DNA of 34,566 nucleotides from a virus. Shown here piece after piece: positions 1 through 25,794 of the stretch. The stretch's first letter is position 1; each line of letters starts with the position of its first letter. The DNA lies in IMG/VR virus record IMGVR_UViG_3300019487_000022, positions 89,241 through 123,806 of that record. One strand, given 5' to 3'. Under the pieces are notes generated by a model. It was not told where the DNA came from, searched no databases, and worked only from the letters and a program-made list of their open reading frames with translations. A program made the position numbers and the translations under genes.

Positions 1-1737
1 TTTGGTAATGTTTATTTAGAAGAAAATATTTACGATAGAATTGGCGGAAATAAAAATATCCCTCATCCAAATAAAGATGGTCGGCGAAGAAGATATAATG
101 CAGCTTATATTTACAATAAAAAAGGAGAACCCGCAACAAGGGCAATTAATACTCTCAATTTGTTGCCTAAAGGCATACAAATTAAATCAAATCTTCCTAA
201 CTATAGATTCTTTGATGATGTAAGATATTTCTTTTCAATGCAAGATCATATTAAAGAATTTGGTATTTCAAATATCGGTGCTTATAGCCCATTTGACATT
301 GATGGTATTAACATTGGATTCGCATTGTGTGAAGATTTATGGTGCGAAGATTACAGAGAAGGCGAAGAATCAATCAATCCAACTAAATACTTGGCAGAAA
401 ATGGTGCAGAGGTTATAGTTAATCTTTCTGCTAGTCCCTGGACTTACGGTAAAAAAGATGCAAGACATAAAAGAGTAAAAAAAGTTCTAAGCGATTACAG
501 ACCTATTAATAAAGCAAGAATGCCCGTCTCTATGTTCTATGTCAATTGTTGCGGTGTGCAGAACAATGGCAAAAACATCATAACATTTGATGGCGGTTCT
601 ACAATTTACGATGGAGCAGGGAATCCTGTTGTTGTTTCAAACGAAATGTTTAAGATGGATCTTCTTATAGCCTCTGTATCTTCAAACTTGCAGATAGAAA
701 ATTCTAATATAAATTCAGATTTATCGTCTCCAAATGTTTTAGTAAAACGTGATAAAATTGAAGAAAAGTATTTAGCTATTAAAACGGCTATTCAACATTT
801 TGTTAAATGCAATGCTGTAATTGGTGTAAGTGGAGGCATTGACTCCGCAGTAGATGCGGCTCTATTTGCTGACGCTATTGGTCCAGAGAATGTTATCGGT
901 ATCAATATGCCTACCAGGTATAACAGCGAAACTACTAAGAATGCGGCTAAAGAATTATGCGATAATCTTAAAATCCCATATTATGTAATCCCTATCGAAG
1001 ATATGGTGGAAGCAAATAGAAAGGCATTAGACAAATATAGCAAGCTTAAAAAGCAAGATACATTCCTACAGTCTCTTGTTGAAGAGAATATTCAAGCTAA
1101 AATCCGTGGCGCAAGTGTTTTATCCAATATTGCGCAGATGGAGAATGGGATTTTTGTAAATAATGGAAATAAAATTGAGGTTGCTATTGGATATGCTACT
1201 CTTTACGGAGATTGGGGCGGTGCTATTGCTCCTTTAGGAGATTTAACAAAAACAGAAGTATATGAATTAGGAAAATACCTTAATCAGCATGTCTTTAAGA
1301 AAGAGGTTATTCCTGCCGCATCTTTTAATGTTGCTCCAAGTGCTGAATTAAAAGAAAATCAAAAAGATCCCATTATTGTAGAATACCATTCTGCAATGAT
1401 CGATAAAATGACAAACTATATGATTGCCTCTGCAACTGATTTTATGGAATGGTGGCTAGAGGGTAAGTTAGAAGAAAAATTAGGTATTTCTAATGATGTT
1501 CTGCAAAAATACAATCTTACAAATGCTGAAGTATTTTTGAAAGATTTGAAGTTTATATTATCTCGGGAAAGAAATCAGGTTTTCAAACGAGTACAAAGTG
1601 TTCCTATTGTTGTTACTTCCAAGACAGCTTACGGATACGATAGAAGAGAAAGTATAATGCCTTCTTATACTTGGACTAAAAAAGCTGAAGAATTAGAAAA
1701 GCGTATTAGAGAACGCGGTAGTTATACCTTTTCATAA
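1..1737 (+). CDS. nadE: glutamine-dependent NAD+ synthetase (nitrilase/CN-hydrolase domain + synthetase domain), 5'-partial
   Basis: Frame is open from base 1. Motifs: KxxLPNYRFFDD, CEDLW (catalytic Cys), NLSASP, FDGGS, SGGIDS (PP-loop), GYATLYGD, PSAEL. Confidence 0.95.
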   Translation, partial: FGNVYLEENIYDRIGGNKNIPHPNKDGRRRRYNAAYIYNKKGEPATRAINTLNLLPKGIQIKSNLPNYRFFDDVRYFFSMQDHIKEFGISNIGAYSPFDIDGINIGFALCEDLWCEDYREGEESINPTKYLAENGAEVIVNLSASPWTYGKKDARHKRVKKVLSDYRPINKARMPVSMFYVNCCGVQNNGKNIITFDGGSTIYDGAGNPVVVSNEMFKMDLLIASVSSNLQIENSNINSDLSSPNVLVKRDKIEEKYLAIKTAIQHFVKCNAVIGVSGGIDSAVDAALFADAIGPENVIGINMPTRYNSETTKNAAKELCDNLKIPYYVIPIEDMVEANRKALDKYSKLKKQDTFLQSLVEENIQAKIRGASVLSNIAQMENGIFVNNGNKIEVAIGYATLYGDWGGAIAPLGDLTKTEVYELGKYLNQHVFKKEVIPAASFNVAPSAELKENQKDPIIVEYHSAMIDKMTNYMIASATDFMEWWLEGKLEEKLGISNDVLQKYNLTNAEVFLKDLKFILSRERNQVFKRVQSVPIVVTSKTAYGYDRRESIMPSYTWTKKAEELEKRIRERGSYTFS

Positions 1738-3430: not shown

Positions 3431-4276
3431 ATGAACTGGTTTAGAAGGTCATTTAGCACATCCTATAATCCGAAATTAGCTGCTAATTGGAAGGATTATA
3501 GAAAAGGATTTTACGGTCCTGCTTTTTTAGGACTGTTAAATGTCTTTTTAAATATGGGGTATAGCCCAGCTGAAGCTCAGCAACTCGCAGAAAAACAATA
3601 TACAGCACAAAATAGTTCAAATGTTACAACACAACCTTCAATAGCTCAACCGACTTCACAACCCATTATTAGTCCTATTGTAACAGAATATTCAACTACT
3701 CAGCCAACTACACAACCTGTAAATCCTACAACTCAGCAAAGTCAAGGATTTAACTACGATGATTTTTACGATCATTTATCTCAAGATAATATCGAAGGTT
3801 ATAGGACAAAGGTTTACGATGATGGAGTTGGAGTAAAAACTATTGGCGTAGGTCATGCAATGGGGAAAAATCCCAATGATAATTGGGCTACAAGAAGTCG
3901 TGAAGTATTTAAAAAGTTATTTCCTGAAGATCCTGATTTATGGGAAAAAGTTTGGAATGGACAAGAATTAACCCCAGAACAAATTGGAAAGCTTACTTTT
4001 GAAGATATTGAACAGCATCTTACTACTGCAAAACGAGTAATGCCAAATTTTGATACTTACCCTTATTATCTACAAAAGGCTCTCCTTGATGGAATTTATC
4101 GTGGAGATATAGGTCCAAAAACCAAAAATCTAATTAACCAAGGTAAATGGCAAGAAGCCGCTGACGAATATATTAACCGTGAAGATTATCGTAATGCAGA
4201 GGAAAATAATATGAGAGGCATAAAAACTCGAATGAATAGTAACAGAGATGCTATGCTTCAATATTATAAAAACTAA
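3431..4276 (+). CDS. GH24 (T4-type) lysozyme with N-terminal hydrophobic segment and Thr/Gln/Pro linker
   Basis: E-x8-D-x5-T catalytic triad in EGYRTKVYDDGVGVKTIGVGH; C-terminal W-x-x-AA-x-E motif; TTQP repeats. Confidence 0.88.
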   Translation: MNWFRRSFSTSYNPKLAANWKDYRKGFYGPAFLGLLNVFLNMGYSPAEAQQLAEKQYTAQNSSNVTTQPSIAQPTSQPIISPIVTEYSTTQPTTQPVNPTTQQSQGFNYDDFYDHLSQDNIEGYRTKVYDDGVGVKTIGVGHAMGKNPNDNWATRSREVFKKLFPEDPDLWEKVWNGQELTPEQIGKLTFEDIEQHLTTAKRVMPNFDTYPYYLQKALLDGIYRGDIGPKTKNLINQGKWQEAADEYINREDYRNAEENNMRGIKTRMNSNRDAMLQYYKN

Positions 4277-4278
4277 AA

Positions 4279-4557
4279 ATGAGCTGTAATTGCGCAAAAG
4301 GTAATAAACGAATACAAGAAGAGCAAAGACATAAGGATTTAATTAATGGTACTATTCAATCTGTGTCATTAGAAGTCTTGCAACAACGACGTGAAGCATG
4401 TAGAACCTGTCCGTTAGCCACTAAGAACCCAAACCCAAAATACGCCAAATTTGGCGGTTTAACGAATTTAAGTAAATGTAAGCGAACGGACAGGTTATTA
4501 CTTTCCGCATTAAAAGATCCCGAATATAAATGCCCAGAAAAACTATTTAAGCAATAG
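4279..4557 (+). CDS. Cys-rich hypothetical protein
   Basis: ORF starts 2 nt after the lysozyme stop; CxC, CxxCP and CP motifs. Confidence 0.7.
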   Translation: MSCNCAKGNKRIQEEQRHKDLINGTIQSVSLEVLQQRREACRTCPLATKNPNPKYAKFGGLTNLSKCKRTDRLLLSALKDPEYKCPEKLFKQ

Positions 4558-4685: not shown

Positions 4686-5090
4686 TTATTCATCCTCATC
4701 TGAATATCTGGATATAGGTTGATTAGCGTCTAGATATCTTCCAACTTTGTCTATAACAACTTCACTAACACCCACATCTCTTAATGTCTTTTCCCAATTA
4801 TCATCTCTAATATCTCCACATCCAAACTCAAATCGATTTCCTATTATCAACTGACAAGGATTGGTGAATAATTTTATCCCATCAATATTGGTATAAGGAG
4901 AAGCATATAAGACAGAATCGCTACAACAACCACAACTATGATAAATATCAACGTCTGTTGTTATAGATGCTATTTCTTTAGACACTAATCTTACTTTTCC
5001 CCATCTATCTTTTCTTTCTTCAATATCTGGAAATTTTTCTAAAAGTTTACTTACTTTTTCTTCATTTAATTTTTGAGCTAATGCTGTCAT
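4686..5090 (-). CDS. hypothetical protein (HSCGCC motif)
   Basis: Start moved to MTALAQ, immediately after the Pth2-like stop. Confidence 0.7.
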   Translation of the reverse strand: MTALAQKLNEEKVSKLLEKFPDIEERKDRWGKVRLVSKEIASITTDVDIYHSCGCCSDSVLYASPYTNIDGIKLFTNPCQLIIGNRFEFGCGDIRDDNWEKTLRDVGVSEVVIDKVGRYLDANQPISRYSDEDE

Positions 5091-5091
5091 T

Positions 5092-5430
5092 TTATTTCTC
5101 CTTAATTTTGAATAATTGAAAACTTTTAAGCGCAATACGAGCATCACCCTGCAACGGCGCAGTAGCAATAGCTGTAATTTCATTGTTTCGATCTGGCTCT
5201 CGCCAAATCTTAAAGGGTATATCGGCAGCTTTAAGTTTATTTATTGCCGTTTCGAGTTGAGATAGGCTATCAACGGAGCATAAACAGAGATGAGGATGCT
5301 CTTGATAATTGTGATATTCTAATGTTGATTCTATTGCCGCATGACAGGCTTGCACGGCAATCTGAGGAATGGATAGATCGTTGCGTGTGATAATATAAAC
5401 ATACTGATTTTGATTGTTAACTCACTTCAT
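5092..5430 (-). CDS. Pth2-like peptidyl-tRNA hydrolase with in-frame TGA at codon 3
   Basis: AAGGAG RBS, then ATG AAG TGA GTT..., in frame with YVYIITRNDL-x3-QIAVQACHA and EPD-x3-EITAIA motifs of the PTH2 fold. Confidence 0.8.
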
Positions 5431-5485
5431 TTTAATCTCCTTGTAGTATAAGTTAGTTACTTCTAAAATTTTAATCGACCTTTTG

Positions 5486-5677
5486 TCATCTTACAATATG
5501 ATATCCAGCTATTCCCAGGGGCCAAAAAATTACTTCTAAGATAACACATACCCAAAATAAATACATTATTTTAAGTATTTTAAAATCTGTATAAAACAAA
5601 CGACTGATTTTATTTGCCCACCATATACCTATTCCGAGGTATAATAAAGAAGCAAAAATAATTAACATTGTTAGCAT
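5486..5677 (-). CDS. small two-TM membrane protein
   Basis: Two hydrophobic segments; starts 3 nt after the tRNA 3' end. Confidence 0.6.
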   Translation of the reverse strand: MLTMLIIFASLLYLGIGIWWANKISRLFYTDFKILKIMYLFWVCVILEVIFWPLGIAGYHIVR

Positions 5678-5680
5678 AAA

Positions 5681-5754
5681 TGCGTCACGGTGGGACTTGA
5701 ACCCACAACCTGAAGATTTGAAATCCTCCGCTCTGCCAATTGAGCTACGTGAGC
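5681..5754 (-). tRNA. tRNA with UCA anticodon (opal suppressor-type), acceptor stem with one bulged C
   Basis: GCTCACG/CGTGA(C)GC-A; D-arm GCTC/GAGC; anticodon arm GAGGA-TTTCAAA-TCTTC; 5-nt variable loop (not a tRNA-Sec body); T-arm GTGGG-TTCAAGT-CCCAC. Confidence 0.88.
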
Positions 5755-5799
5755 ATATATGTATGCTACTTTAAATTAAAGCACCATACATATTTAAAT

Positions 5800-6558
5800 T
5801 TATGTATTATCTTTAATGTCTGTATCTTCTTTAGGATTTTCTGCAAAGAAATCCTGAGTTGTTAAAGACATTAACTCATCTGCTGCTTCTTTATTATCTG
5901 TGGAACGAGCTCTAACAGCGGATTTAACTTTACTGACATATGATATACGAGAAGTTCGTAATGTGTCAAATGCATTTTTTGTTCCTTTTTCAGATGGAAC
6001 ATAATTTAATGTGTTATTTACACTAAATCCTAGTTCTTTAGCAGTTTTAAGGGTATTCTCATCGCACCCTATAAATGTGAATGTCCATGCACGACTTGAA
6101 CGAAATTCTTCCAATATTGTTTTAAGTTTACCGAAGTCTCGCCATTCTTGCGATGAAGAATTTTCGCCTCCATCAGTAAAAATAGTGACTACAACATTGA
6201 CACTTTGAGAAGTCAATTGATCCCTAATCTCTTCAGAAAGACGTTGTACTGTTTTTCCAATTGCCTCATATAGTGCAGTACTTCCTGATGGACTATATGT
6301 ATTAGTGGTCAAGTCTTTGATTTGATTAACAGGCTTATCCCATATATCACAAGAAACTGAATCATTAAAAGTAACAAAATATAATTTTTGTTCTATTTCT
6401 GAATCGTTTTCTTGTTCTTTACGAAGTGCGATCAGGTTTTCGTTAAACCCGTCGATAGTTGACTGACGAACCGATGTCATAGAACCGCTTTTATCCAAAA
6501 TCAGTACATGACATATTGTGTGTTTACCTAACACACTCTGAGCTGCATTTGTAGACAT
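5800..6558 (-). CDS. von Willebrand factor A (vWA) domain protein
   Basis: MIDAS LDKSGSM, TALYEAI, FTDGGEN. Confidence 0.9.
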   Translation of the reverse strand: MSTNAAQSVLGKHTICHVLILDKSGSMTSVRQSTIDGFNENLIALRKEQENDSEIEQKLYFVTFNDSVSCDIWDKPVNQIKDLTTNTYSPSGSTALYEAIGKTVQRLSEEIRDQLTSQSVNVVVTIFTDGGENSSSQEWRDFGKLKTILEEFRSSRAWTFTFIGCDENTLKTAKELGFSVNNTLNYVPSEKGTKNAFDTLRTSRISYVSKVKSAVRARSTDNKEAADELMSLTTQDFFAENPKEDTDIKDNT

Positions 6559-8413: not shown

Positions 8414-8869
8414 CTATATTAAAACTTCTTTTATAAGATCTGATAATGATAAGCAAGCATTTCTTTTAGTTTCTAGATTATAAAGCCAATCTAAATAGTT
8501 AGTGTGACATGCGCCGTCAGGTCGTCCATAATAGAGCCTGCCACTTGTTACATATCTACCAAATTCTACATTAGTAGTAAGTGCTGGCATATTTGTCATA
8601 TTACGTGGAACCCAACAGACGATCTTTTTGCAATTTTCTAGCCAGAAACGTTCCCAATTAACTTGATCTAGAAAATCTATTCTGGATTGAAAACTTTTAA
8701 ATTCAGGAATTAATATTACACCGTCAAAGTTCTGAATGATTAATTCTTGAATTGCTTCTGGACGCCAAGATTTTACATCTGGATTTCTGGGTGTAGGTCC
8801 AGCTAAGAAAATAGTGTCAAATCTTAATAATTCTGAATCAATAGGATCGTCAGAATAAACTATTTTCAT
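8414..8869 (-). CDS. nucleoside 2-deoxyribosyltransferase-like protein
   Basis: IFLAGPTPR, SWR, Q-x-x-WE and P-x-x-TTNVEFG motifs. Confidence 0.8.
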   Translation of the reverse strand: MKIVYSDDPIDSELLRFDTIFLAGPTPRNPDVKSWRPEAIQELIIQNFDGVILIPEFKSFQSRIDFLDQVNWERFWLENCKKIVCWVPRNMTNMPALTTNVEFGRYVTSGRLYYGRPDGACHTNYLDWLYNLETKRNACLSLSDLIKEVLI

Positions 8870-9263: not shown

Positions 9264-10958
9264 CTATTTCATTTTAAATGTATAAAGACTGTTATTTTTT
9301 GTTATAACAGCCTCATCTCCATATCTGTGAATTTTCATCTTCCCATTAACAGCATTGTCACTCACAACTGTTAATCGTGTATCATCTTTTGTGTTTTTGA
9401 ACACATTTACATCGTCTTTTTCATCAATATGAATGCATATTCCATTTTTAAGCACTGTAAAATTCAATCCAGAATATACAATATCCTCATCGATACGCAT
9501 ATCATATGTATCATGAGACGAATTAAATCTTAATACAAAACGATCATATCTACCCTGTTTAGTTACTCCTATCATCATTAAAACAGAACTTTCATATTTT
9601 GCGTCAATTATCTTATGTTTTGCAATTTCAGGTATAGTTATGCGTTTATGCATTCGCTCGGATGGAAATACAGAAACAAACTTCATATCAATCAAGTTCT
9701 GTATTGCTATTCCGTCAAAAAGTGTAGTTGCTTTTTCAGAAACGTTAGCAATTGGCTGATTGATAATTTTTATCGTATTAGGTAGTTCTATGTAACGTAT
9801 TTCATTAATCCAAGTTCCATTTTTAATGTATACCCTTCCTTGACAAACCATCATATCTGAAGCAGATACCGAACCTATTTCTTTATTGGCAATAAAATCT
9901 GTGAATTTTGCTAATCCATTTTCTAAATATGCAACAATAGGTTTATTTAATTGAGGCGTAAATATAACTTCAGAATTAGATGATATAGCAACTGGAGAGT
10001 TGTTATTGAATTTGCCGGACTTTTTATCTGTGACGAATCTATGTCCAAAACTGAAAATGATATTTGTAAGTTCTCCCATTCCAGAAAATTCTTCAATTTT
10101 CTTGACAATAAATTTATTACTACCAATGAATTGATTAACTCTAGGTACATAAATAACAGTATCTATTTTGTTACTTTGTGGAGGAAGCAATCTTTTTCCC
10201 TCTTCAAAAATTGCAAAATACCATTTACGATATTCATCCGGTATCACATCTACGGGATCACATGCTGCTGGTACTAAAACATCTTTGTTAAATACCGATA
10301 TATTATGAGCCATTCGCTCTTCAAATCCTTTATACTTATCATGTCTCCCCTTAAATGGATGAATACCTGTAAAAAGTTGAAATGTAATTATTCCCCAAGA
10401 ATACCAATCAGAAAGAACTGTAAACTTGTTATCTTTTATCAAAGGATCTTTTATATTTGGCATAATAGCCGTAGCAGGATGTTTTTTGGTTTGATAAGTA
10501 TTTGTATCTATAAAATAAACCTCTTTTAAATCTTTTCTAACGAGAAAGTTCAACTCATTACAATCAACAACCAATATCTCTTTTTTATGAAGATGTTCTA
10601 TCCCCTCTTGCAATCTCTTTACAAGGAAAAGAATCTGATCTTGATTGACATTGTTTTTATTTTTAAATGCACGAGTAAATAACTGACATAAAACGTATGT
10701 ATTAGTTACATACTTCATACTATAGCCAATGGGACGGTTTTTCTTATCTAAAATAATATCTTCTGGTTTAATTATATTAGGAAGAGTAATAGCAGATAAT
10801 TCTTGTATTTTCTCATATGGTATCATCTTTGACGGATCTGAATAAATCTTAAAAACAGTATCTCCGTGAGCAAATATTTTCCCTTCTCCACCTTCAGCTA
10901 GAAAATCTGAAGGATCAAGCTTTAGTTTCCCTTTGCCTTGTATTGTGAAGTCAAGCAT
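9264..10958 (-). CDS. Ser/Thr protein kinase (YegI/TerY-P-triad-like) with C-terminal beta-rich domain
   Basis: Gly-rich loop LAEGGEGKIF, catalytic D-x4-N (VVDCNELN), IDTN, SDWYSWGII, GIHPF. Confidence 0.85.
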   Translation of the reverse strand: MLDFTIQGKGKLKLDPSDFLAEGGEGKIFAHGDTVFKIYSDPSKMIPYEKIQELSAITLPNIIKPEDIILDKKNRPIGYSMKYVTNTYVLCQLFTRAFKNKNNVNQDQILFLVKRLQEGIEHLHKKEILVVDCNELNFLVRKDLKEVYFIDTNTYQTKKHPATAIMPNIKDPLIKDNKFTVLSDWYSWGIITFQLFTGIHPFKGRHDKYKGFEERMAHNISVFNKDVLVPAACDPVDVIPDEYRKWYFAIFEEGKRLLPPQSNKIDTVIYVPRVNQFIGSNKFIVKKIEEFSGMGELTNIIFSFGHRFVTDKKSGKFNNNSPVAISSNSEVIFTPQLNKPIVAYLENGLAKFTDFIANKEIGSVSASDMMVCQGRVYIKNGTWINEIRYIELPNTIKIINQPIANVSEKATTLFDGIAIQNLIDMKFVSVFPSERMHKRITIPEIAKHKIIDAKYESSVLMMIGVTKQGRYDRFVLRFNSSHDTYDMRIDEDIVYSGLNFTVLKNGICIHIDEKDDVNVFKNTKDDTRLTVVSDNAVNGKMKIHRYGDEAVITKNNSLYTFKMK

Positions 10959-16164: not shown

Positions 16165-16734
16165 ATGAGAATAATAGGATTTCTGTATCTTCTATTGTTG
16201 TTAATTGTAGGCTGTACTGATAATAAACATATCAACTATAATTGTAATTATAGTAACGCAAAAGCTGCATTAAATCCAAAAGAAAAATCATTAGCTCTTG
16301 GTACTTTATCATCTTCTACTACAAAACCGTCTTCTTCTGACAAATACATCATATGTTTAAATAAAAATCTAGAATTTGCTAAAGAAATGGCATGGAGAGA
16401 TGCTAAAACGCGATTTACTAATCCAGTTGTAGTTTTAGCTCATGGGCGGGAATATCTAGGCAGTTGGTTTATTTTTCCAGATAAGGGAGATCCTTTTAGA
16501 GTAGATAGCTATGCTTGGATATTAAACGAAACATATATAGATTGTGATATTGTTTTATTTGTGTGCAATCCATCTGGATTAACGATATATGTACCACGAG
16601 TATGGTATTATAGAGGAAACGTTTGGGTAGTACCGGATACAGAACCTCCTGCAAAATATCGAGAGATGAAAAGAAATTTTATGGGTAATGGCTCTATTTG
16701 GGAAGCTATTACACAAAATACATGGGCTGAATAA
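16165..16734 (+). CDS. lipoprotein, possible His-Cys dyad peptidase fold
   Basis: Lipobox IVG-C; VVVLAHG and IVLFVCNP strands. Confidence 0.55.
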   Translation: MRIIGFLYLLLLLIVGCTDNKHINYNCNYSNAKAALNPKEKSLALGTLSSSTTKPSSSDKYIICLNKNLEFAKEMAWRDAKTRFTNPVVVLAHGREYLGSWFIFPDKGDPFRVDSYAWILNETYIDCDIVLFVCNPSGLTIYVPRVWYYRGNVWVVPDTEPPAKYREMKRNFMGNGSIWEAITQNTWAE

Positions 16735-16823
16735 GGAAGATAGTGGAGTCGAACCACAGGCACTAATCAGTGACACCATCCCGCTTCGAACGGGCGACCA
16801 TTACCACAATGGCTATATCTTCC
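16734..16823 (-). tRNA. tRNA-Ser(CGA), non-canonical 8/4 fold
   Basis: 8-bp acceptor GGAAGATA/TATCTTCC, 6-bp D-stem, loop TTCGAAG, long variable arm, 4-bp T-stem GTGG/CCAC, U discriminator. Confidence 0.8.
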
Positions 16824-17016
16824 GCTGAGAAAATTCTTCGTAATATCCAGCTAGCTCATCTTCAACAATTACTTTCATTTTGTGAAAACGATAACCATAT
16901 TGTTTTTGTTCTTTACAAACAGCTTTTACCTCCGATCTATTCTCTTTGCAAACTGGTTTTCCATCACATCCACAAATAAAGCGTTTTGCAGTTAAATCTA
17001 CTACATAATATTTCAT
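16813..17016 (-). CDS. hypothetical protein
   Basis: ORF track; its 3' end overlaps the tRNA 5' end by 11 nt. Confidence 0.55.
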   Translation of the reverse strand: MKYYVVDLTAKRFICGCDGKPVCKENRSEVKAVCKEQKQYGYRFHKMKVIVEDELAGYYEEFSQRKI

Positions 17017-17018
17017 TG

Positions 17019-17897
17019 CTAATCTTCTTCTTCATCTGTGATTCTAGGAAGTTCCCCTAATGAAAATTCTCTAATAAGATGTTCAAACGGTTCTTCTCCC
17101 TCTACATTCCACATTTTAATTAAAAAGTTATGTTCAGCAACTGTGAGAATCATGGCGGGATCTATTACACTATTAGGAATAGATATTTTTCTTGAATAAA
17201 TGGTTTTCGTTTGAGGTATCCACATTACCCTAATTCTGCCATCTTCTTCATTTTGCCATGTATCGTTGGCTTCCAATGAAAAGATATCTGCTAGTTTGGG
17301 TATCTTGTAACATTCTGACATAACTTCAAAATATCGCTGTTTTGCTAAAGCAAAACCTTTTAACAAATCGTCTGTTAATGTTCCAGGCATATCCGCATAA
17401 AAATAAATACATTCCCTGTAGCCATAAGGAATTCTTCCTAATTCAGCGCTAAATGCAGTATTTGAGAAATCAATGTTTGCAACTGCAAAAAGGTTACTAT
17501 CTAAATATCTAATTTTTCTATTGTTTTCTTTGATTATCTTTTTGGTAAATGGATATCTTTGATCAGAAATAATTTCAGTTTCTACATCATGTCTCCTTGT
17601 CCATTGATTTGCATTTATTGCAATTTTAAAATAGCGAGGGAAATCAAATAATTTGTTATCAAGTATTGGAAAATACCTGCTTAATTTTGCAGCTACGTAT
17701 TTTTTCCCAAGTGCTAACAAAACCTTTGATTTGCGTTGCCGTAAAATCTCATATCGTCTCCCTGCCCTATCGTATTTAATATTTTCTGCTCTTTCTATTG
17801 CCTCAAACAAACTATCTTCATTTTTTAATTTAGAAGTATGCTTGTAAATAATCTGAGGAAATTTTTCAATTGATTCATCAATAGTCATTACAGACAT
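17019..17897 (-). CDS. hypothetical protein
   Basis: 292-aa ORF with AAGGAG RBS. Confidence 0.75.
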   Translation of the reverse strand: MSVMTIDESIEKFPQIIYKHTSKLKNEDSLFEAIERAENIKYDRAGRRYEILRQRKSKVLLALGKKYVAAKLSRYFPILDNKLFDFPRYFKIAINANQWTRRHDVETEIISDQRYPFTKKIIKENNRKIRYLDSNLFAVANIDFSNTAFSAELGRIPYGYRECIYFYADMPGTLTDDLLKGFALAKQRYFEVMSECYKIPKLADIFSLEANDTWQNEEDGRIRVMWIPQTKTIYSRKISIPNSVIDPAMILTVAEHNFLIKMWNVEGEEPFEHLIREFSLGELPRITDEEED

Positions 17898-17935
17898 GAT
17901 TGCGTCTCCTTTATTTTGAATTTTGTCAAAATAAG

Positions 17936-18169
17936 TTAATCGTCATAAGGTTCCAGTTGAATATCCGCAGTATCTTCCTCTAATTGTTTTTGAAAATTAT
18001 CATATTGTTCTTGTGATGGTGGTTTACATGGAGGATTACATTGACAAGGAAAAACTGTATAATGACCACAGCGTTTATTTAAACGCATAGCTTTTAATAC
18101 AGCATTATACATGTCTTTATCGCCTTCTGCTGCTTTATACATAGCACAAGCTAATATTGGAAAACTCAT
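17936..18169 (-). CDS. hypothetical protein (Cys-rich)
   Basis: ORF track, overlapping stop/start. Confidence 0.6.
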   Translation of the reverse strand: MSFPILACAMYKAAEGDKDMYNAVLKAMRLNKRCGHYTVFPCQCNPPCKPPSQEQYDNFQKQLEEDTADIQLEPYDD

Positions 18170-18561
18170 TCTTGATTCTCTTTCTCTTCCCTTTTCTTTT
18201 GAAGTTTCATTTTTTGTTCAAATGTTAGTTGTTCTTCTGCTTCAGGACTAGGCTCAAAACCATTAGCAATAAATAAATCTTCTATTGTGTCTGCATCTTC
18301 ATAATCTTCATCGGTTATAACCATCCACTCGCTGCCGCAACTAGTGTCAAAAACATCCTCTATGATTTGTTTTTCTACTACATTACCCAGATTATCGTGA
18401 ATATGCACATAACCCATAGTTATATCATTAGCACATACTTGGCAAATAAAGCCAGTAATGTAGTGTATTGCTTCTTTTCTGGATTCAAAACCACTGTGAT
18501 TATGATTCCCATTTACAAGATGAACAGCAGTAAATCCCATTGTATTTTTCCTATGTATCAT
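18166..18561 (-). CDS. hypothetical protein
   Basis: ORF track, operon overlap. Confidence 0.65.
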   Translation of the reverse strand: MIHRKNTMGFTAVHLVNGNHNHSGFESRKEAIHYITGFICQVCANDITMGYVHIHDNLGNVVEKQIIEDVFDTSCGSEWMVITDEDYEDADTIEDLFIANGFEPSPEAEEQLTFEQKMKLQKKREEKENQE

Positions 18562-18790
18562 TGAGATTTGATTCCCAACGATTTAATTCTGATTGCTCAT
18601 AACAGAAAAAACCATGATTCAAACTATAAATAATTACCCAACCATCTTTTTCTTCTATAAAAGCATTACTTATGAAAAAGAAGGTTTTATCTTTATGACT
18701 AATGACAGCATAATTTTTAAATCTATCATCTGTTGACTTTAGCGTTTCAGCAATAGTATCTGCATACTGCTCTATTTCGTCCAGATTCAT
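18551..18790 (-). CDS. hypothetical protein
   Basis: ORF track. Confidence 0.6.
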   Translation of the reverse strand: MNLDEIEQYADTIAETLKSTDDRFKNYAVISHKDKTFFFISNAFIEEKDGWVIIYSLNHGFFCYEQSELNRWESNLNDT

Positions 18791-18792
18791 AT

Positions 18793-19065
18793 CTATTCCA
18801 TTTTATTCTTTTCATCCAAAACATCTTGTTTAAGCTGTTTTATTTTAGCACAGATATTTGCCATTGTTTCGCTTTTTTCTTCGTGAGATAAATTTTTTCT
18901 ATTTGAAAATACTATTTTATCTCTGTTTATTTCGTCTATTCGTGTTTGGTATTTTTTGAAAATGATTGTGTGACGTTTAAGATTTTCGCAATATGCGTTC
19001 CATTCTTCGTGCATATTGTTATATTCGACTACATATCTTCTGATACCTCCATCTCTATTCTCCAT
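18793..19065 (-). CDS. hypothetical protein
   Basis: Start moved to MENRDG, 3 nt after tRNA-Leu. Confidence 0.55.
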   Translation of the reverse strand: MENRDGGIRRYVVEYNNMHEEWNAYCENLKRHTIIFKKYQTRIDEINRDKIVFSNRKNLSHEEKSETMANICAKIKQLKQDVLDEKNKME

Positions 19066-19068
19066 TAA

Positions 19069-19149
19069 TGCGGGCGACAGGAATCGAACCTGCACACCTT
19101 ATGGTACTGGCTTCTAAGACCAGCGCGGCTGCCGTTACGCCACGCCCGC
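19069..19149 (-). tRNA. tRNA-Leu(TAG), long variable arm
   Basis: GCGGGCG/CGCCCGC-A; CTGGT-CTTAGAA-GCCAG; T-loop TTCGATT. Confidence 0.93.
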
Positions 19150-19163
19150 AAATATCTTTAAAG

Positions 19164-19293
19164 TGGGACAGGCGGGATTCGAACCCTAACAGTATTGCTA
19201 CTGTAGCTGACAGTTCATGTGTTCGCGACGGGACATGCTGTCAACGCATCTGTCGATTAGAGGTCTCTATCGGCTTACTTAGCCCACTGTCCC
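19164..19293 (-). ncRNA. 130-nt tRNA-like RNA with a 59-nt structured insertion in the T-stem
   Basis: Acceptor GGGACAG/CTGTCCC-A; D-like GGCT/AGCC; GCG-[insert]-GG-TTCGAAT-CC-CGC; no canonical anticodon arm. Confidence 0.75.
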
Positions 19294-19295
19294 AA

Positions 19296-19370
19296 TACGC
19301 CCGAGGGGATTTGAACCCCTAAGCATCTCCTTCTAAGGGAGATAGGTTTGCCAATTTCCGTCACAGGCGT
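19296..19370 (-). tRNA. tRNA with TAG anticodon (Leu), short variable loop
   Basis: ACGCCTG/CGGGCGT-A; TCTCC-CTTAGAA-GGAGA; 5-nt variable region; AGGGG-TTCAAAT-CCCCT. Confidence 0.88.
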
Positions 19371-19422
19371 GTAAAAAATATGGCTATTTTCGATAATAAA
19401 GAGAATTTAACTTCTGGAGATA

Positions 19423-19626
19423 TTACTTACCCCTGGAGATTTCCAGGGAAACATTTGAACCATCTTCAATAGAAATAATTGTTTGATTACCCTGTCTACT
19501 AACTATAACCCCCTGAGTTTCATATATCTTTTGAGGTTTATTTGCTTCAATTTTTAATTTAGATCCGATAGCAAAACCAAAAAATAGTGCTAATACTAAC
19601 AGAATCAGGTATATGATCTTAAACAT
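19423..19626 (-). CDS. small protein with N-terminal TM helix
   Basis: ORF track. Confidence 0.6.
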   Translation of the reverse strand: MFKIIYLILLVLALFFGFAIGSKLKIEANKPQKIYETQGVIVSRQGNQTIISIEDGSNVSLEISRGK

Positions 19627-19634
19627 ATAATAGT

Positions 19635-19910
19635 TTATTCATCAAAAGAAACATCATGACTGTCATCCTTCCAATGAACTGTATTATATTTGGCCCCACA
19701 ATTTCTGCAGGTAACATCCTCTGGTATTGTCATCCATTCTCCTGATTTAACATCTTGTGGATCTACACCAAATTGTTCTGCATAATCCATCTTCTCTTCA
19801 GGAGACATTTCAACAATAATGCCTTGTTCAAAATTATCCGTATAACATTTATCACAAGTCCAAATATGTGCCGGTCTTAATTCTATATAAGGTAATTTAT
19901 CGTTATCCAT
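19635..19910 (-). CDS. zinc-ribbon hypothetical protein
   Basis: WTCDKC...TCRNCG. Confidence 0.65.
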   Translation of the reverse strand: MDNDKLPYIELRPAHIWTCDKCYTDNFEQGIIVEMSPEEKMDYAEQFGVDPQDVKSGEWMTIPEDVTCRNCGAKYNTVHWKDDSHDVSFDE

Positions 19911-19911
19911 A

Positions 19912-20142
19912 TTATTTAATATACTGTTTATATGCTTTAATTGCCTCTACGGTTAACAATTTTCTTATTTCTTCCTCTTCTCTTATATCTATATACTTCC
20001 CTAAAGGATATAATGCAGAATCTACAGAACAATCAATTGCAGTCTTTTCACTAGCATTGGAATAATATTTTATTGTTGTTTCAACTGCTTCATGTACATG
20101 TAAAATAGCAACATCTAACAATGCTTTATCGATCTTAATCAT
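19912..20142 (-). CDS. hypothetical protein
   Basis: ORF track, tight operon spacing. Confidence 0.6.
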   Translation of the reverse strand: MIKIDKALLDVAILHVHEAVETTIKYYSNASEKTAIDCSVDSALYPLGKYIDIREEEEIRKLLTVEAIKAYKQYIK

Positions 20143-20143
20143 A

Positions 20144-20425
20144 TTACTTAGGGTTTCTTATTTTTAATTTCTTCCAAATAAAATCAGGTACTATACAACG
20201 CACTTTTTCATCATTATCAATATCCGTTAATGCTTTGCATTGACAACATTTAAAACTTACATAAGTTATGGTAGACCCATCCATGAGACATCTGGTAGTC
20301 TTAAAAAGATCTTTCTCATCAACTAAGAGAATTGCGCCACAGCCTTTTCTGTTATTACCAAACCCAGTACATTTAAACTTCTTCGACCAAATTTGTGTGG
20401 GTTCTCCCTTTTTAATAACTTTCAT
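20144..20425 (-). CDS. zinc-ribbon hypothetical phage protein (MKVIKKG...C...GCGA...CxxC)
   Basis: ORF track. Confidence 0.65.
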   Translation of the reverse strand: MKVIKKGEPTQIWSKKFKCTGFGNNRKGCGAILLVDEKDLFKTTRCLMDGSTITYVSFKCCQCKALTDIDNDEKVRCIVPDFIWKKLKIRNPK

Positions 20426-20997
20426 TTTATAGCCTTATAGTTAGCTAAACTACATACTGCTTCATTCCCTCTTCCCGATCCAATATCGGTTATTATCATT
20501 AAATTTCCATTTGGTAATTTAACTGTTACTTGCCCTTCATCTTGAACCGCAGTTAATTTCAAACCTCTCCATCTGACATGCCCTATAGTTTGTTTATTTT
20601 CTTCAACTGCTGTAAATGTTAATCCGCCATCTGGTTCCACAGCCGCTAAATAGTTCTCTCCAGTTTTTACTTTTGATAAATTTAGAGCAAGATCAAACAA
20701 CCCATCTTTAGTAATTGCGGTAAGTCTTCTGGTAGGGTCTACATTGTTCGTGAGCCACTTGAGGGATTTAACTGTTCCAATTTTACAAGTAGGAATTTGA
20801 CAGCCCTTTTTTATAAATGATTGTAACCATCTAGATTTCGAGATAAAAGCAGCTTCGTCAAAGCACATTTTATCTCTCAACTCTTGATAACCTTGAGATA
20901 TCAATAGTATGTTTTCTTGTATATCTTCATCTGCTAAATAAGAATAGGTGTTAAAAGTTAATACTCTACTTGCATAAATGGCTTGTTCGTCTGTCAT
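20422..20997 (-). CDS. hypothetical protein
   Basis: ORF with AAGGA RBS. Confidence 0.7.
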   Translation of the reverse strand: MTDEQAIYASRVLTFNTYSYLADEDIQENILLISQGYQELRDKMCFDEAAFISKSRWLQSFIKKGCQIPTCKIGTVKSLKWLTNNVDPTRRLTAITKDGLFDLALNLSKVKTGENYLAAVEPDGGLTFTAVEENKQTIGHVRWRGLKLTAVQDEGQVTVKLPNGNLMIITDIGSGRGNEAVCSLANYKAIK

Positions 20998-21009
20998 TAG
21001 TTAATCCTT

Positions 21010-21279
21010 TTAAGCTTCACCGACTACTTCTTTATCATCTGGAGGAATATAATTCGTTACCCACCATACCGGCTCATAAATTTCGATTGCCTGATCGCCA
21101 GCTATTCCTAATGTCTTACTTACTTTCTTTGCTATTCCTAATCCAGGTTGACCAGCTATGTCAATTCTAAACCATGCTCCAATAGGTAAATCACTCATAT
21201 GTTTAAGCACTAGGTTTTCTGCTAAGGGATACACTGAATCACCTCTTTTTATTAAATTAAGCAATGTAAGCCATATCAT
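21010..21279 (-). CDS. hypothetical protein
   Basis: ORF track. Confidence 0.55.
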   Translation of the reverse strand: MIWLTLLNLIKRGDSVYPLAENLVLKHMSDLPIGAWFRIDIAGQPGLGIAKKVSKTLGIAGDQAIEIYEPVWWVTNYIPPDDKEVVGEA

Positions 21280-21496
21280 TTTTAATCTTTATATCATTAG
21301 CATACCCTTCAATTACCGCTCTTGGTTGTCTCTTTTTCGATTTACTACAACCATTTAATTTATGAAAAACAATGTGCTTAACAAAATGACATTTTCCTTT
21401 AAAATGCACTGACCAAATTACCTCTCCCAATTGCAATGTTTTTGGTTTATTAAAGTGAAAGAAAAACTTAAATTTGCCAGGTGTTTTAAGAGGCAT
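21257..21496 (-). CDS. hypothetical phage protein (FFFHFNKP...QPR motif)
   Basis: ORF track. Confidence 0.65.
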   Translation of the reverse strand: MPLKTPGKFKFFFHFNKPKTLQLGEVIWSVHFKGKCHFVKHIVFHKLNGCSKSKKRQPRAVIEGYANDIKIKNDMAYIA

Positions 21497-21499
21497 ATC

Positions 21500-21829
21500 T
21501 TAGTCCATCCAATCGGGATTCTCTTCTTCCCACTTCTTTTCTTCTAATAAGACACGATGTTCATCTGGAGTTAATGTTTTAATAAATGAAATGTTAGTAT
21601 ATGCCTTTTCACCAATCTCTTCTTTTAATGCTGTCCAAATAATATCCTGTCGATTTGAAATAGGAATACCATTGAAACCTTTCCATATCACAATACCATT
21701 AATTCTAGGTAGACATTGCAACTCCACAGAAGCTTCTGGAAAAGTTTCTTTTATTATTCTTAAAGTAACTTCAAATAATTGATTACGTTCGATGATTTCT
21801 TTATCTCGCGGCATTAATCCACAACCCAA
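21500..21829 (-). CDS. hypothetical protein
   Basis: ORF track. Confidence 0.6.
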   Translation of the reverse strand: MGCGLMPRDKEIIERNQLFEVTLRIIKETFPEASVELQCLPRINGIVIWKGFNGIPISNRQDIIWTALKEEIGEKAYTNISFIKTLTPDEHRVLLEEKKWEEENPDWMD

Positions 21830-22179
21830 TCTAACGAAGCTAAAGCAAGCATTTCAGTTTTTGTCATTTTTCTATAAATACGACTATTTAATCTAAAATT
21901 TTGATTATCACTTAAAATAGCTAATCTTGGAATATCAGTTTCTAAATCTAACCTATCCTTATCATCTAATTCAACATATGCACATTTATTCTTGTTTAAT
22001 CTAATAATTTTATCAAATGCTGGAAACTCTGGAGTGCTTGGGAATCGTATCACTAAGTAAGAAAAACTATTACCCACATATCCTTCTAAAACAAACACCT
22101 CTACAGATGGAGAAAAGAACGGATTATGAGAGTATAAAAGCTTTAATTTTATTGAAGAAGTAGGTAATATACACAACAT
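21814..22179 (-). CDS. hypothetical protein
   Basis: ORF track. Confidence 0.55.
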   Translation of the reverse strand: MLCILPTSSIKLKLLYSHNPFFSPSVEVFVLEGYVGNSFSYLVIRFPSTPEFPAFDKIIRLNKNKCAYVELDDKDRLDLETDIPRLAILSDNQNFRLNSRIYRKMTKTEMLALASLDWVVD

Positions 22180-22208
22180 CTATCTTATAATCGACAGGCA
22201 TTGTTAAT

Positions 22209-22409
22209 TTATATTCTCACCCATTTTGCAGGTTTTCTAGACGATTCTCTACGTCGATTTATATCTTTTAGTTTAGGGCATATGTTATATATAATCTCGC
22301 CCAATATAGATATATCTAACATTTGTCCTTTACTTTCTTTAAAAGCTTTATCTATCGCTGCATCAAAACGTTGTGAAAATTTCTTTCTTTTTATATTATT
22401 CTTTGCCAT
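22209..22409 (-). CDS. small basic hypothetical protein
   Basis: ORF follows the RNA ligase by 9 nt. Confidence 0.55.
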   Translation of the reverse strand: MAKNNIKRKKFSQRFDAAIDKAFKESKGQMLDISILGEIIYNICPKLKDINRRRESSRKPAKWVRI

Positions 22410-22418
22410 AATAGTTTA

Positions 22419-23441
22419 TCAACTAAAATCATTATCATCTGGCGCATGTTTCGGATTAATTAACTTAAGAGCCAAACGAAACTTTGTTGTTGAATAACGA
22501 GGAATTAGTGGAGTTACAACAACACCTTCTTTTATATGTAACGAATTGCCACTGATATTTTCTTTTCCTTCTCTTAAAGGACGAATTTTATTGATATCAA
22601 ATGGACCTTCATATAAAACAGGCACCCAAAGCTTCCGTAAATCTTCAGGAATTTCTGAAAATGGTAAAGTCCTACCTTCAACATCAATCCTGAAAATAAA
22701 TATAGTTTTCTTTTTTAAACCGTAGTTGTATCCTTTATGAAAAGGAACGACCTCACCAAATGCTTGAGTATTTACACTAGGAAAATGTTTTTCCAAAAGA
22801 TCAAAGAGTCCAGAATCATTAGCTACAATACGATACGCAACATCTGCTTCATCAGCAAAAAATTGATCGTTATCAAGTAATCCTTTTGATGTAACTAACC
22901 TTTTACCATCTGCTAGTTTGACATACACACCTTGAGTACCATGAATTTTCTCTGTAACTTGTACATGTTCACCCTCTACAAATTCATTAGGATAAATATT
23001 GTAAGTTTCAACTTCGTGCTTATGAATATCTGTACCAATTGTTTCAAGAGAAAATACCTCTCCAACCAATTCATCTGGAATTGGAGCTATATATCGCGTT
23101 ATCCCTAACCTAGCAGAAATATCTTCACCTAATGGAACATCCACTAATGCAGGAATATCATCAAGAATAATTCCCTGAGTCAGCTCTTTTTGCATAACCA
23201 GGGCTTTAACACGATTCTTTTCAGGACCAACTAAGTATTTACGGCGATCCCCTTCATCAGCAATTGCATCTGGTAAAACGGATTTTTCAGGAACAAAAAT
23301 TACAATGCTCTCGTTCTTGAAAATTCCTTTACCAACGACCACCTGATATTGCCCCACTTTACCTAGTTCCAATCTCAAAACCTCTGGATTAGGGTGAGGA
23401 AATAACTGTATCTTTTCTCTTGTAACTTTCCACTGTGCCAT
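22419..23441 (-). CDS. ATP-dependent RNA ligase, DRB0094/Rnl2-like
   Basis: N-terminal tRNA-binding-type domain (HPN...LEL...YQVVV.KG); motif I TEKIHGT, FGEV, EGVVV, KLIN. Confidence 0.9.
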   Translation of the reverse strand: MAQWKVTREKIQLFPHPNPEVLRLELGKVGQYQVVVGKGIFKNESIVIFVPEKSVLPDAIADEGDRRKYLVGPEKNRVKALVMQKELTQGIILDDIPALVDVPLGEDISARLGITRYIAPIPDELVGEVFSLETIGTDIHKHEVETYNIYPNEFVEGEHVQVTEKIHGTQGVYVKLADGKRLVTSKGLLDNDQFFADEADVAYRIVANDSGLFDLLEKHFPSVNTQAFGEVVPFHKGYNYGLKKKTIFIFRIDVEGRTLPFSEIPEDLRKLWVPVLYEGPFDINKIRPLREGKENISGNSLHIKEGVVVTPLIPRYSTTKFRLALKLINPKHAPDDNDFS

Positions 23442-23468
23442 AAATACTCCAAAATATCGTCTTTGCTT

Positions 23469-23981
23469 CTATTTTAACATTGTTTGCATTACAGGATTGC
23501 AATACGCACGTCTCCAAAAATCTAATGTTTCTTCTCCAACCTGAGAGACATTCGCTCTTGCAACTATTTCAGCTTCGCTATAAAAAACAAAAGATTCTTT
23601 TCTCAATCCAAATAATCTTAAACTTCTAATGATTCGCGTAATACGTAATAAATTATGATTGCGAAAAGCACACCAAGATTGTTTATCTACATTCCAATGA
23701 TTACCTATTCCATAAAATAAACGAAATCTCTCAAGACAACTTAAAATATTAGTTGTGGCTTTATCTGAACTTTGAAGAATTTTTATATCTTCTTCTGTTA
23801 AAACAGGCCCATTAAAATTATGCCGTGAAGTCTCATGCAAAGGGAATAGCCATTGAATCCAAGTATGACTTTTTTCAAGATCCCAATCAGAACTGTTAAT
23901 CATCTGTTTTAAAGTTATGCCTTCATCATTTGGTAAATCATTAATATAGAAGTCTAAAATTTTTGATGTATATTTAGTCAT
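23469..23981 (-). CDS. opioid growth factor receptor (OGFr)-like domain protein
   Basis: LE-x-x-H-x-WIQWLFPL and NHNLLRITRIIRSL motifs. Confidence 0.85.
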   Translation of the reverse strand: MTKYTSKILDFYINDLPNDEGITLKQMINSSDWDLEKSHTWIQWLFPLHETSRHNFNGPVLTEEDIKILQSSDKATTNILSCLERFRLFYGIGNHWNVDKQSWCAFRNHNLLRITRIIRSLRLFGLRKESFVFYSEAEIVARANVSQVGEETLDFWRRAYCNPVMQTMLK

Positions 23982-24322
23982 ACAATACCTGCCATTTTCT
24001 TGCGATGTCTTTTACACCATGATGAATTTAAAACCATGTTTGATGCATCTCTAGCACAAGAAGGTTGTTCAAAAGCGACTTTAAAACTAGTTAAAAATAA
24101 CCTATGGCGTTCTTGTTCATCTTCCCATGACTTTTTATGTTCTGGACAAAGAGCTAAAGAACCCCAACCCGGTCTTGCATTTGCAATCCATTCTGCACCA
24201 AAAATACCACAAACATTGCAACAGAGATTCCAGCCGTTTAATTCCTTTTCTGCTGCTTCTGCCATTTGTAAAGCAATTTTATGGGCTTCTGGATTTATTT
24301 CTTCTGGTTTCTTAAAAGGCAT
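23978..24322 (-). CDS. hypothetical zinc-binding protein
   Basis: CNVCG...LCPEH. Confidence 0.65.
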   Translation of the reverse strand: MPFKKPEEINPEAHKIALQMAEAAEKELNGWNLCCNVCGIFGAEWIANARPGWGSLALCPEHKKSWEDEQERHRLFLTSFKVAFEQPSCARDASNMVLNSSWCKRHRKKMAGIV

Positions 24323-24393
24323 TTTTCACTTTCTTAAACGTAAATAAGCCTTAATGAGATATGAAAGGGGAATTTTCTTCAGGAGATGAGAAG

Positions 24394-24478
24394 TGTCGTT
24401 GAGAGGATTCGAACCTCCAAGGTCACAATGACCACATGGGTCTGAACCATGCGCTTTTACCAATTTAGCCACAACGAC
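24394..24478 (-). tRNA. tRNA-Leu(CAG)
   Basis: GTCGTTG/CAACGAC-A; CATGG-TTCAGAC-CCATG; long variable arm. Confidence 0.93.
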
Positions 24479-24481
24479 ATT

Positions 24482-24652
24482 TTATATTTTTCCACACAAG
24501 TGATAAATTAATGTTGTAAATGACATGCCTATTACAAATAAATATATGCAAAGAAGAATCAAAAATGCTTGCCTTTGTTTCCAACGAACTTTTGCAATAG
24601 CATAATCCGTTGTTTCTTTCCAATATTTTTTCTGCCAATCATCTGTATTCAT
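24482..24652 (-). CDS. 56-aa single-TM protein (not in ORF track)
   Basis: MNTDDWQKKYW...FLILLCIYLFVIGMSF...; TAATG overlap with the upstream gene. Confidence 0.55.
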   Translation of the reverse strand: MNTDDWQKKYWKETTDYAIAKVRWKQRQAFLILLCIYLFVIGMSFTTLIYHLCGKI

Positions 24653-24912
24653 TATTTTTTCTTTCTTTTCTTTTTTAAATCTTCTTCTCTTTTCTTCATT
24701 GCTGCTATCTTTATTTTAGCTATATAATGTCCGTTCCCAGCCAGATCTTTTGCTTCTTTTGTCATTGCTGCTACATAATGTTCATGAGCAGTTTTTAATG
24801 CTAATTGACCTTCTGGTGTTTCAAACATTCTACGAGATATTTCTATTCTTTCTTGTATGTCTTTTTCTAGTTCTTCCTTAGTCATCTCTTTATATTTAGG
24901 TTTCTTTTTCAT
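24652..24912 (-). CDS. basic hypothetical protein
   Basis: Start moved to MKKKPK, after tRNA-Leu(CAA). Confidence 0.6.
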   Translation of the reverse strand: MKKKPKYKEMTKEELEKDIQERIEISRRMFETPEGQLALKTAHEHYVAAMTKEAKDLAGNGHYIAKIKIAAMKKREEDLKKKRKKK

Positions 24913-24915
24913 AAG

Positions 24916-24997
24916 TGTCGATGACAGGAGTCGAACCTGCACGATGTTACTCAACAGTTTTTGAAACTGCCGCGGCTGCCAATTCCGCCACATCGAC
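24916..24997 (-). tRNA. tRNA-Leu(CAA)
   Basis: GTCGATG/CATCGAC-A; GCAGT-TTCAAAA-ACTGT. Confidence 0.93.
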
Positions 24998-25005
24998 ATG
25001 TATTA

Positions 25006-25227: not shown

Positions 25228-25252
25228 AAATATCTTTCTTTTTAAATTACAA

Positions 25253-25693: not shown

Positions 25694-25698
25694 ATAAA

Positions 25699-25779: not shown

Positions 25780-25794
25780 GATTCTTCTTACAAG

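What the first reader, a model, noticed from the sequence alone, without database searches (positions are those of the whole stretch)
5092..5754. Pth2-like gene gated by an in-frame UGA at codon 3, next to an opal-suppressor tRNA
Seen: a strong RBS (AAGGAG, 6 nt before ATG) precedes ATG AAG TGA, and the frame continues into the conserved first strand of a PTH2-fold protein (YVYIITRNDL...QACHA). There is no ATG/GTG/TTG between the TGA and that motif, and the GTG at 5355 would delete it. A tRNA with a UCA anticodon and a short variable loop lies 250 bp upstream on the same strand. TGA still works as a normal stop elsewhere in the window (5486, 8877, 11935, 14908), so this is not genome-wide recoding. 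Inference: the hydrolase is made only when UGA is read through, via the suppressor tRNA and/or low RF2 activity. That would give a termination-stress sensor that supplies a peptidyl-tRNA rescue enzyme, loosely analogous to prfB autoregulation.
Basis: partly seen in the sequence, partly recalled or inferred. Interest (0 to 1): 0.9.

Follow-up and report, generated by a model that had tools for sequence, protein, structure and literature searches.

The report
Suppressor-tRNA-gated phage Pth2-like gene
A large phage that otherwise uses UGA as a normal stop carries a UGA-reading tRNA next to a tRNA-hydrolase-like gene whose third codon is UGA; over a hundred distant relatives keep this pairing with stop codon and anticodon always matched, so the protein is very probably made only when that tRNA overrides the stop.

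Summary
Observation confirmed. On the minus strand AAGGAG precedes ATG-AAG-TGA, then a 109-codon Pth2-fold frame (PF01981; Z 14.4 to archaeal Pth2); a tRNA(UCA) lies 251 nt upstream. It is the only such site in the 123.8-kb contig, where TGA ends about 20 ordinary genes.

It is not a pseudogene. Of 149 distinct relatives, 124 carry a stop at codon 2-13 (120 TAG, 4 TGA). Where a suppressor tRNA was called, it always matches (72 TAG/CUA, 3 TGA/UCA). Another internal TAG occurs in 25, the frame is under purifying selection, and a purine follows the stop in 94%. The window's tRNA is closest to amber suppressors of this system, so codon and anticodon switched together. Six cultured phages have the amber form.

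The read-through gate is about 90% likely. Its purpose is inferred: most likely feedback between suppressor activity and a tRNA-deacylating protein. Hydrolase activity is unproven (conserved Lys is Gln here), the RF2-stress reading is untested, and raw reads were not obtainable.

No published description was found. This scan has noted the system before on other DNA (69 notes; 5 on opal forms).

The parts
5092..5430 (-). Pth2-like gene, 112 codons, with in-frame TGA at codon 3
5422..5424 (-). gate codon TGA, followed by GTT (purine at +4, as in 116 of 124 relatives)
5437..5442 (-). Shine-Dalgarno AAGGAG, 6 nt before the ATG, in unstructured RNA
5682..5754 (-). opal-suppressor tRNA (anticodon UCA at 5721-5719), short variable loop, bulged acceptor stem, closest to amber suppressors of related loci
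5757..5793 (-). strong hairpin abutting the 5' end of the tRNA (z -5.6); role unknown (processing, terminator or operator)
5486..5677 (-). 63-aa hydrophobic ORF between tRNA and gene; ends in TGA with only a 4-codon extension; no family hit; probably a passenger
4686..5090 (-). 134-aa gene starting one base after the Pth2-like stop; may be translationally coupled and so indirectly gated; no family hit

Best explanation
A phage-encoded translational gate. Ribosomes start at the strong RBS and meet UGA at codon 3. RF2 normally ends translation there. When the phage's own tRNA(UCA) is charged and wins the competition, the Pth2-fold protein is made, so its level reports suppressor activity (gate: about 0.9, shown by comparative evidence, not by experiment). 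The inserted residue probably does not matter. The protein most likely acts on acylated tRNA 3' ends, namely the suppressor itself or the peptidyl-tRNAs that read-through generates. That closes a feedback loop that limits or cleans up read-through in a phage that still needs UGA as a stop (purpose: inferred, about 0.5-0.6).
For: Gate: 124 of 149 distinct relatives have a start then a stop at codon 2-13. Codon and anticodon match in 72 TAG/CUA and 3 TGA/UCA loci, with no mismatch. TGA rows (window, L018, L096, L110) lie in separate parts of a quick tree among TAG rows, and the window tRNA is closest to CUA suppressors. 25 rows have an internal TAG between conserved motifs and none has an internal TAA or TGA. 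Purine at +4 in 116/124 versus 120/236 natural TAG stops; Thr precedes the stop in 42/124 versus 10/236. ATG, GTG and TTG never follow the stop although 49 Val codons do. Synonymous changes equal or exceed non-synonymous ones in 11 of 12 close pairs. Neighbours use TAG and TGA as normal stops. Five complete genomes with no nearby call all hold a CUA tRNA or a degenerate one. Feedback: 21 of 25 copies without the N-terminal stop still lie near a suppressor tRNA, often directly upstream of it, and several have a TAG..PP leader or an internal TAG. The gate also sits on the partner HD-domain and 'RWGF' genes. Acceptor stems and N73 of the tRNAs vary widely.
Against: No expression, proteomic or read data. 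Enzyme activity is unproven: NCBIfam Pth2 scores are 20 versus a cut-off of 126, and the conserved Lys of Pth2 aligns to Gln and the Asp to Glu. The bulged acceptor stem may make the window's tRNA weak or inactive. Linkage does not give the sign of the feedback. Counts are not phylogenetically independent, and the 110-column quick tree is poorly resolved.
Confidence: 0.6

Rival explanations
1. Same gate, but it is a stress sensor for counter-defence. Read-through rises when release factor is short, or when host tRNAs are cut or sequestered so that a synthetase starts charging the poor-substrate suppressor. The output is a general tRNA recycling and repair module.
For: Gated partner is an HD-domain protein, fused to the Pth2-like domain in several phages. 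RtcB and a tRNA nucleotidyltransferase are neighbours in some loci. Iyer et al. (PMC7824862) read jumbo-phage PTH2 as ribosome rescue after tRNA cleavage. Degenerate or bulged suppressor tRNAs fit a conditional substrate.
Against: No direct link to RF level was found. Copies without the stop stay tied to the suppressor tRNA, which suggests the protein's job concerns that tRNA. Synthetase competition is my inference from general knowledge.
Confidence: 0.25
2. A dose or timing device. The stop simply keeps a potentially harmful deacylase low, or delays it until the phage tRNA has accumulated, with no feedback.
For: Strong RBS plus one or two stops gives low, tunable output. Borges et al. (10.1101/2021.08.26.457843) propose stop-codon timing of late genes.
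Against: A weak RBS would lower the dose more cheaply. Keeping a suppressor tRNA for one client gene is costly. Does not explain linkage of stop-free copies.
Confidence: 0.08
3. Early or relict stage of genome-wide stop-codon recoding; the stop is a tolerated neutral change near a suppressor tRNA.
For: Standard-code relatives of recoded phages can hold suppressor tRNAs.
Against: Stops concentrate in this gene and its partners at a fixed place with a biased context across very distant phages. No other TGA client was found in 123.8 kb.
Confidence: 0.03
4. Re-initiation at a non-canonical codon after a two-codon minigene; the tRNA is incidental.
For: ATT follows the stop in 17 of 124 rows, and 40 of 117 non-fusion rows have some canonical start codon before or in strand 1.
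Against: Internal second TAGs in 25 rows, codon/anticodon matching, and absence of ATG/GTG/TTG directly after the stop.
Confidence: 0.03
5. Pseudogene or sequencing error.
For: Raw reads not seen.
Against: Same TGA in a second record; family-wide conservation and purifying selection.
Confidence: 0.01

Closest known systems
Stop-codon-recoded phages with suppressor tRNAs (Borges et al., 10.1101/2021.08.26.457843)
   Same: A phage suppressor tRNA lets genes with in-frame stops be translated; proposed as regulation.
   Different: There, many late and lysis genes are recoded (TAG=Gln, TGA=Trp). Here the genome is standard code, one to three genes are gated at a fixed N-terminal position, and the client acts on tRNA rather than lysis.
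prfB (RF2) autoregulation (own knowledge)
   Same: An early in-frame stop makes synthesis depend on competition with termination.
   Different: prfB uses a +1 frameshift and encodes the factor that reads the stop. Here the frame is unchanged, a dedicated tRNA is the competitor, and the product is a Pth2-fold protein.
Archaeal/eukaryotic Pth2 and jumbo-phage PTH2 (PF01981; PDB 1wn2; Iyer et al., PMC7824862)
   Same: Same fold (Z 14.4, rmsd 1.8 over 102 residues) and the R-x-D-L / Q-x-x-H-A motifs; PTH2 already noted in jumbo phages.
   Different: Divergent, mostly viral branch with Gln for the conserved Lys and an E-P-D motif. Iyer et al. mention neither suppressor nor stop codon. By recollection the motifs resemble human PTRHD1; not tested.
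Streptomyces bldA / TTA codon gating (own knowledge)
   Same: One tRNA gates genes through one special codon.
   Different: bldA reads a rare sense codon in a cellular regulon; here a stop codon competes with a release factor.
arfA regulation by trans-translation (PMC8012679)
   Same: A rescue factor made only when a translation process fails.
   Different: Controlled through non-stop mRNA and tmRNA tagging, not stop-codon suppression.

Membership tests
Pth2 (PF01981) | Pth2 alpha/beta fold | tested here: met
   AF2 pLDDT 90; 1wn2 Z 14.4, rmsd 1.8, 102 aligned
Pth2 (PF01981) | Pfam score above gathering cut-off | tested here: met
   32.2 versus 23 bits
Pth2 equivalog (PRK04322, TIGR00283) | NCBIfam cut-off | tested here: not met
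   20.1 versus 126; 18.2 versus 82
Pth2 equivalog (PRK04322, TIGR00283) | Lys/Asp/Thr catalytic residues (their identity is from memory; source papers not held) | tested here: inconclusive
   By HMM alignment Lys aligns to Gln and Asp to Glu; a nearly invariant Asp77, Thr83 and invariant His27 are present
Pth2 (PF01981) | Hydrolyses peptidyl- or N-acyl-aminoacyl-tRNA | not testable with these tools
   needs an enzyme assay
tRNA-Sec / selenoprotein | Long variable arm and extended acceptor stem; RF01852 match | tested here: not met
   73 nt, 5-nt variable loop, matches only RF00005
tRNA-Sec / selenoprotein | SECIS hairpin after UGA, UGA at a Cys-equivalent site | tested here: not met
   Region unstructured over the 42 nt folded; relatives have TAG, not Cys, at that place
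Recoded phage (code 4/25) | In-frame TGA in many genes | tested here: not met
   Long genes read under code 11; about 20 true TGA stops; one client found
Recoded phage (code 4/25) | Phage-encoded suppressor tRNA | tested here: met
Recoded phage (code 4/25) | Code-change module (RF1, TrpRS) | not tested
   The contig is partial (123.8 of at least 184.8 kb)
prfB-type autoregulation | Programmed +1 frameshift at the stop; product is the release factor | tested here: not met
   Same frame continues; product has the Pth2 fold
Leader-peptide (stop..PP) variant of this system | Short leader with the suppressible stop followed by Pro-Pro | tested here: not met
   No TGA..PP leader in the 123.8-kb contig; present in L018 and in several stop-free loci

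The most novel reading that the evidence does not exclude
The 'orphan' suppressor tRNAs of standard-code phages are dedicated sentinel RNAs, not code-change tools. Each is a deliberately poor synthetase substrate that becomes charged only under a defined stress, and the Pth2-like protein it unlocks is its own deacylase or recycler. That would be a portable two-part RNA-protein feedback device that has moved between amber, ochre and opal codons.
Probability: 0.3. Interest if true: 0.92.

Novelty: new variant of a known kind. Interest (0 to 1): 0.8.

Why it matters
Suppressor tRNAs in standard-code phages are reported without a known target (e.g. PMC8386662). This gives them a conserved client gene and a testable circuit, present in cultured phages (GAP32, fHe-Yen9-04, ME3, Arash, XacN1, Xoo-sp13). 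It is a natural case of stop-codon suppression used to regulate single genes, and a possible route by which suppressor tRNAs are kept before genome-wide recoding. The gene is truncated, missed or forced into code 15 by gene callers. This opal copy is a useful control, because it shows that codon and anticodon change together.

Tried and rejected

Inserted residue from database homologues: rejected. The two 'Gln' proteins checked are code-15 gene calls over TAG.

tblastn screen for other in-frame stops among neighbours: dominated by antisense-ORF noise; only one HD-gene TAG at a conserved Trp (L118) was credible.

First read-through scan missed the positive control and was replaced.

Promoter scan: 11 sites versus 9.5 expected, uninformative.

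'RWGF' partner protein: no Pfam family and best Z 4.9; not found in this contig.

Strict tRNA patterns missed real suppressors; corrected.

L032 was mislabelled TGA-gated (it has its own ATG) and was removed from the counts.

The careful tree did not finish; the quick tree was used and no formal clade test was run.

Ten literature searches found no description of the pairing (among them); subscription papers are not covered. Papers on Pth2 catalytic residues and PTRHD1 activity were not held. No complex prediction was run.

Full report
Observation. On the minus strand AAGGAG (5442-5437) lies 6 nt before ATG (5430), followed by AAG and TGA (5424-5422), and the frame then stays open to TAA at 5092. 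The first canonical start after the TGA is GTG 5355, which removes strand 1 and the R-x-D-L motif; this 87-aa form is what databases hold. The post-stop frame matches PTH2. A 73-nt tRNA with anticodon UCA and a short variable loop lies at 5682-5754, 251 nt upstream; its acceptor stem has a bulged C. The source is a 123.8-kb virus record in code 11 with about 20 ordinary TGA stops. This gene is the only RBS-ATG-short-stop-long-frame site in it. A second assembly record has the same TGA. Raw reads were unavailable.

Relatives. Scans of viral, metagenome and genome contigs gave about 170 loci, or 149 distinct rows and 70 clusters at 60% identity. In 124 rows a start codon is followed by a stop at codon 2-13, most often 3 or 5: 120 TAG and 4 TGA. 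No TAA gate without its own downstream start was seen, although TAA is the commonest natural stop in these loci. Where ARAGORN called a suppressor tRNA in the locus it matched the gate in every case, 72 TAG/CUA and 3 TGA/UCA. Five complete genomes with no call nearby all hold a CUA tRNA elsewhere or a degenerate one close by: three by ARAGORN, two judged by eye. Neighbouring genes use TAG and TGA as normal stops. Cultured phages GAP32, fHe-Yen9-04, ME3, Arash, XacN1 and Xoo-sp13 have the amber gate and a CUA tRNA; RaK2 has its own ATG, and no CUA tRNA was found in it.

Codon and anticodon move together. The four TGA rows (window, L018, L096, L110) sit in separate places among TAG rows in a quick, poorly resolved tree. 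They share N-terminal motifs with TAG rows, for example M-E-H-stop in L096 versus L151 and L156. Among 495 tRNAs in the loci, the window's tRNA is closest to the CUA suppressor of L002, and CUA suppressors fill most of the top ranks, ahead of Trp and Arg tRNAs. It therefore looks like an amber suppressor of this system that changed anticodon. One locus has a UUA tRNA (L077), a possible intermediate.

Read-through, not decay or re-initiation. Synonymous differences equal or exceed non-synonymous ones in 11 of 12 close pairs; the exception is an indel-shifted pair (a crude codon count). Twenty-five rows have a TAG inside the domain, mostly in a variable loop between conserved motifs, and none has an internal TAA or TGA; re-initiation cannot bypass these. 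The base after the gate is a purine in 116/124 versus 120/236 natural TAG stops, and Thr precedes it in 42/124 versus 10/236 (rows are not independent). From my own knowledge, a 3' purine favours tRNA suppression in E. coli. ATG, GTG and TTG never directly follow the gate.

Wider module. The gate moves to the front of HD-domain/Pth2-like fusions, also sits on a free HD gene (L013; L118 has an internal TAG), and sits on a conserved downstream 'RWGF' gene in six loci. Of 25 copies without the N-terminal stop, 21 still have a suppressor tRNA nearby, often right behind the gene. Several have a short TAG..Pro-Pro leader upstream or an internal TAG, and L018 has the opal version of that leader. The leader idea came from earlier scan notes and was partly checked here. 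The window's contig has no HD partner, no RWGF partner and no such leader, so it shows the minimal form, tRNA plus gated gene, although the contig is incomplete.

Protein. The AF2 model (pLDDT 90) matches P. horikoshii Pth2 at Z 14.4. The family is large and mostly viral. It is not a canonical Pth2: it scores far below the NCBIfam cut-offs, and the conserved Lys and Asp align to Gln and Glu, with His27, Glu75, Asp77 and Thr83 conserved instead. Acyl-tRNA hydrolysis is likely from the fold but not shown.

Mechanism. Shown by sequence comparison: a conserved, selected stop matched to a phage tRNA. Inferred: RF2 and the charged tRNA compete at codon 3, so output tracks suppressor activity. The residue inserted is probably unimportant, since acceptor stems and N73 vary and the sites are in variable regions; database 'Gln' is a gene-caller artefact. 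Because the phage still needs TGA as a stop, and because even stop-free copies stay beside the tRNA, I favour feedback in which the protein deacylates or recycles the suppressor or its by-products (0.6 with the gate). A stress sensor feeding a tRNA repair module is the main rival (0.25) and is not exclusive of it. The sign of the loop is open.

Comparison and novelty. Recoded phages use suppressors on many late genes (10.1101/2021.08.26.457843). Jumbo-phage PTH2 has been noted without stops or suppressors (PMC7824862). Suppressor tRNAs of standard-code phages are reported as unexplained (PMC8386662), and PMC7162821 mentions neither suppressor nor peptidyl. No paper in the library describes the pairing. 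tRNA-gated expression and stop-gated autoregulation are known principles, so I class this as a new variant of a known kind. This scan has already noted the system on other DNA: 69 notes in at least 55 genomes, 5 on opal forms. Those notes are not independent evidence, and the counts above are my own.

Verdict. Real, conserved and testable in cultured phages. Interest 0.8.

Noticed in passing
window 16734-33176: Fifteen further tRNA calls, all Leu, Ser, Cys, Tyr or Thr; the contig ends inside the cluster.
   Followed up: no
window 5757-5793 (-): Strong AT-rich hairpin directly 5' of the suppressor tRNA (z -5.6).
   Followed up: partly
window 3431-4557 (+): Lysozyme/endolysin gene and a 92-aa follower, convergent with the Pth2-like operon; neither needs TGA read-through.
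   Followed up: partly
window 1-1737, 5800-6558, 8414-8869, 9264-10958: NAD synthetase, VWA protein, nucleoside deoxyribosyltransferase-like protein and Ser/Thr kinase genes around the locus.
   Followed up: no
window 23469-23471 (-): TAG-ended 170-aa ORF is in frame with the next 340-aa ORF; probably chance, as no CUA tRNA is in this contig.
   Followed up: no
L106, L115, L133, L150, L169, L170, about +350 to +400 from the Pth2-like gene: The uncharacterised basic 'RWGF' gene has its own M-L/T-TAG gate, with tRNA(CUA) just behind; no fold match.
   Followed up: partly
L118:3746: HD-domain gene with TAG where homologues have a conserved Trp, upstream of a stop-free Pth2-like gene; a possible handle on the inserted residue.
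   Followed up: no
L214 about 2465-2490 (phage RaK2): His-TAG-Val-Asn-Asn in frame just upstream of the gene's own ATG looks like a relic gate in a phage where no CUA tRNA was found.
   Followed up: no
L253:503-595 and L249:740-811 (572-kb genome of L026): A CUA tRNA with a long variable arm and a separate short UCA tRNA in one genome.
   Followed up: partly
L215:3804-3878 (phage Arash): tRNA annotated as Phe in the record is called CUA by ARAGORN.
   Followed up: partly
L168-L171, L174: The module lies on contigs of Planctomycetota genome bins, one of them 1.6 Mb; prophage or cellular status not examined.
   Followed up: no
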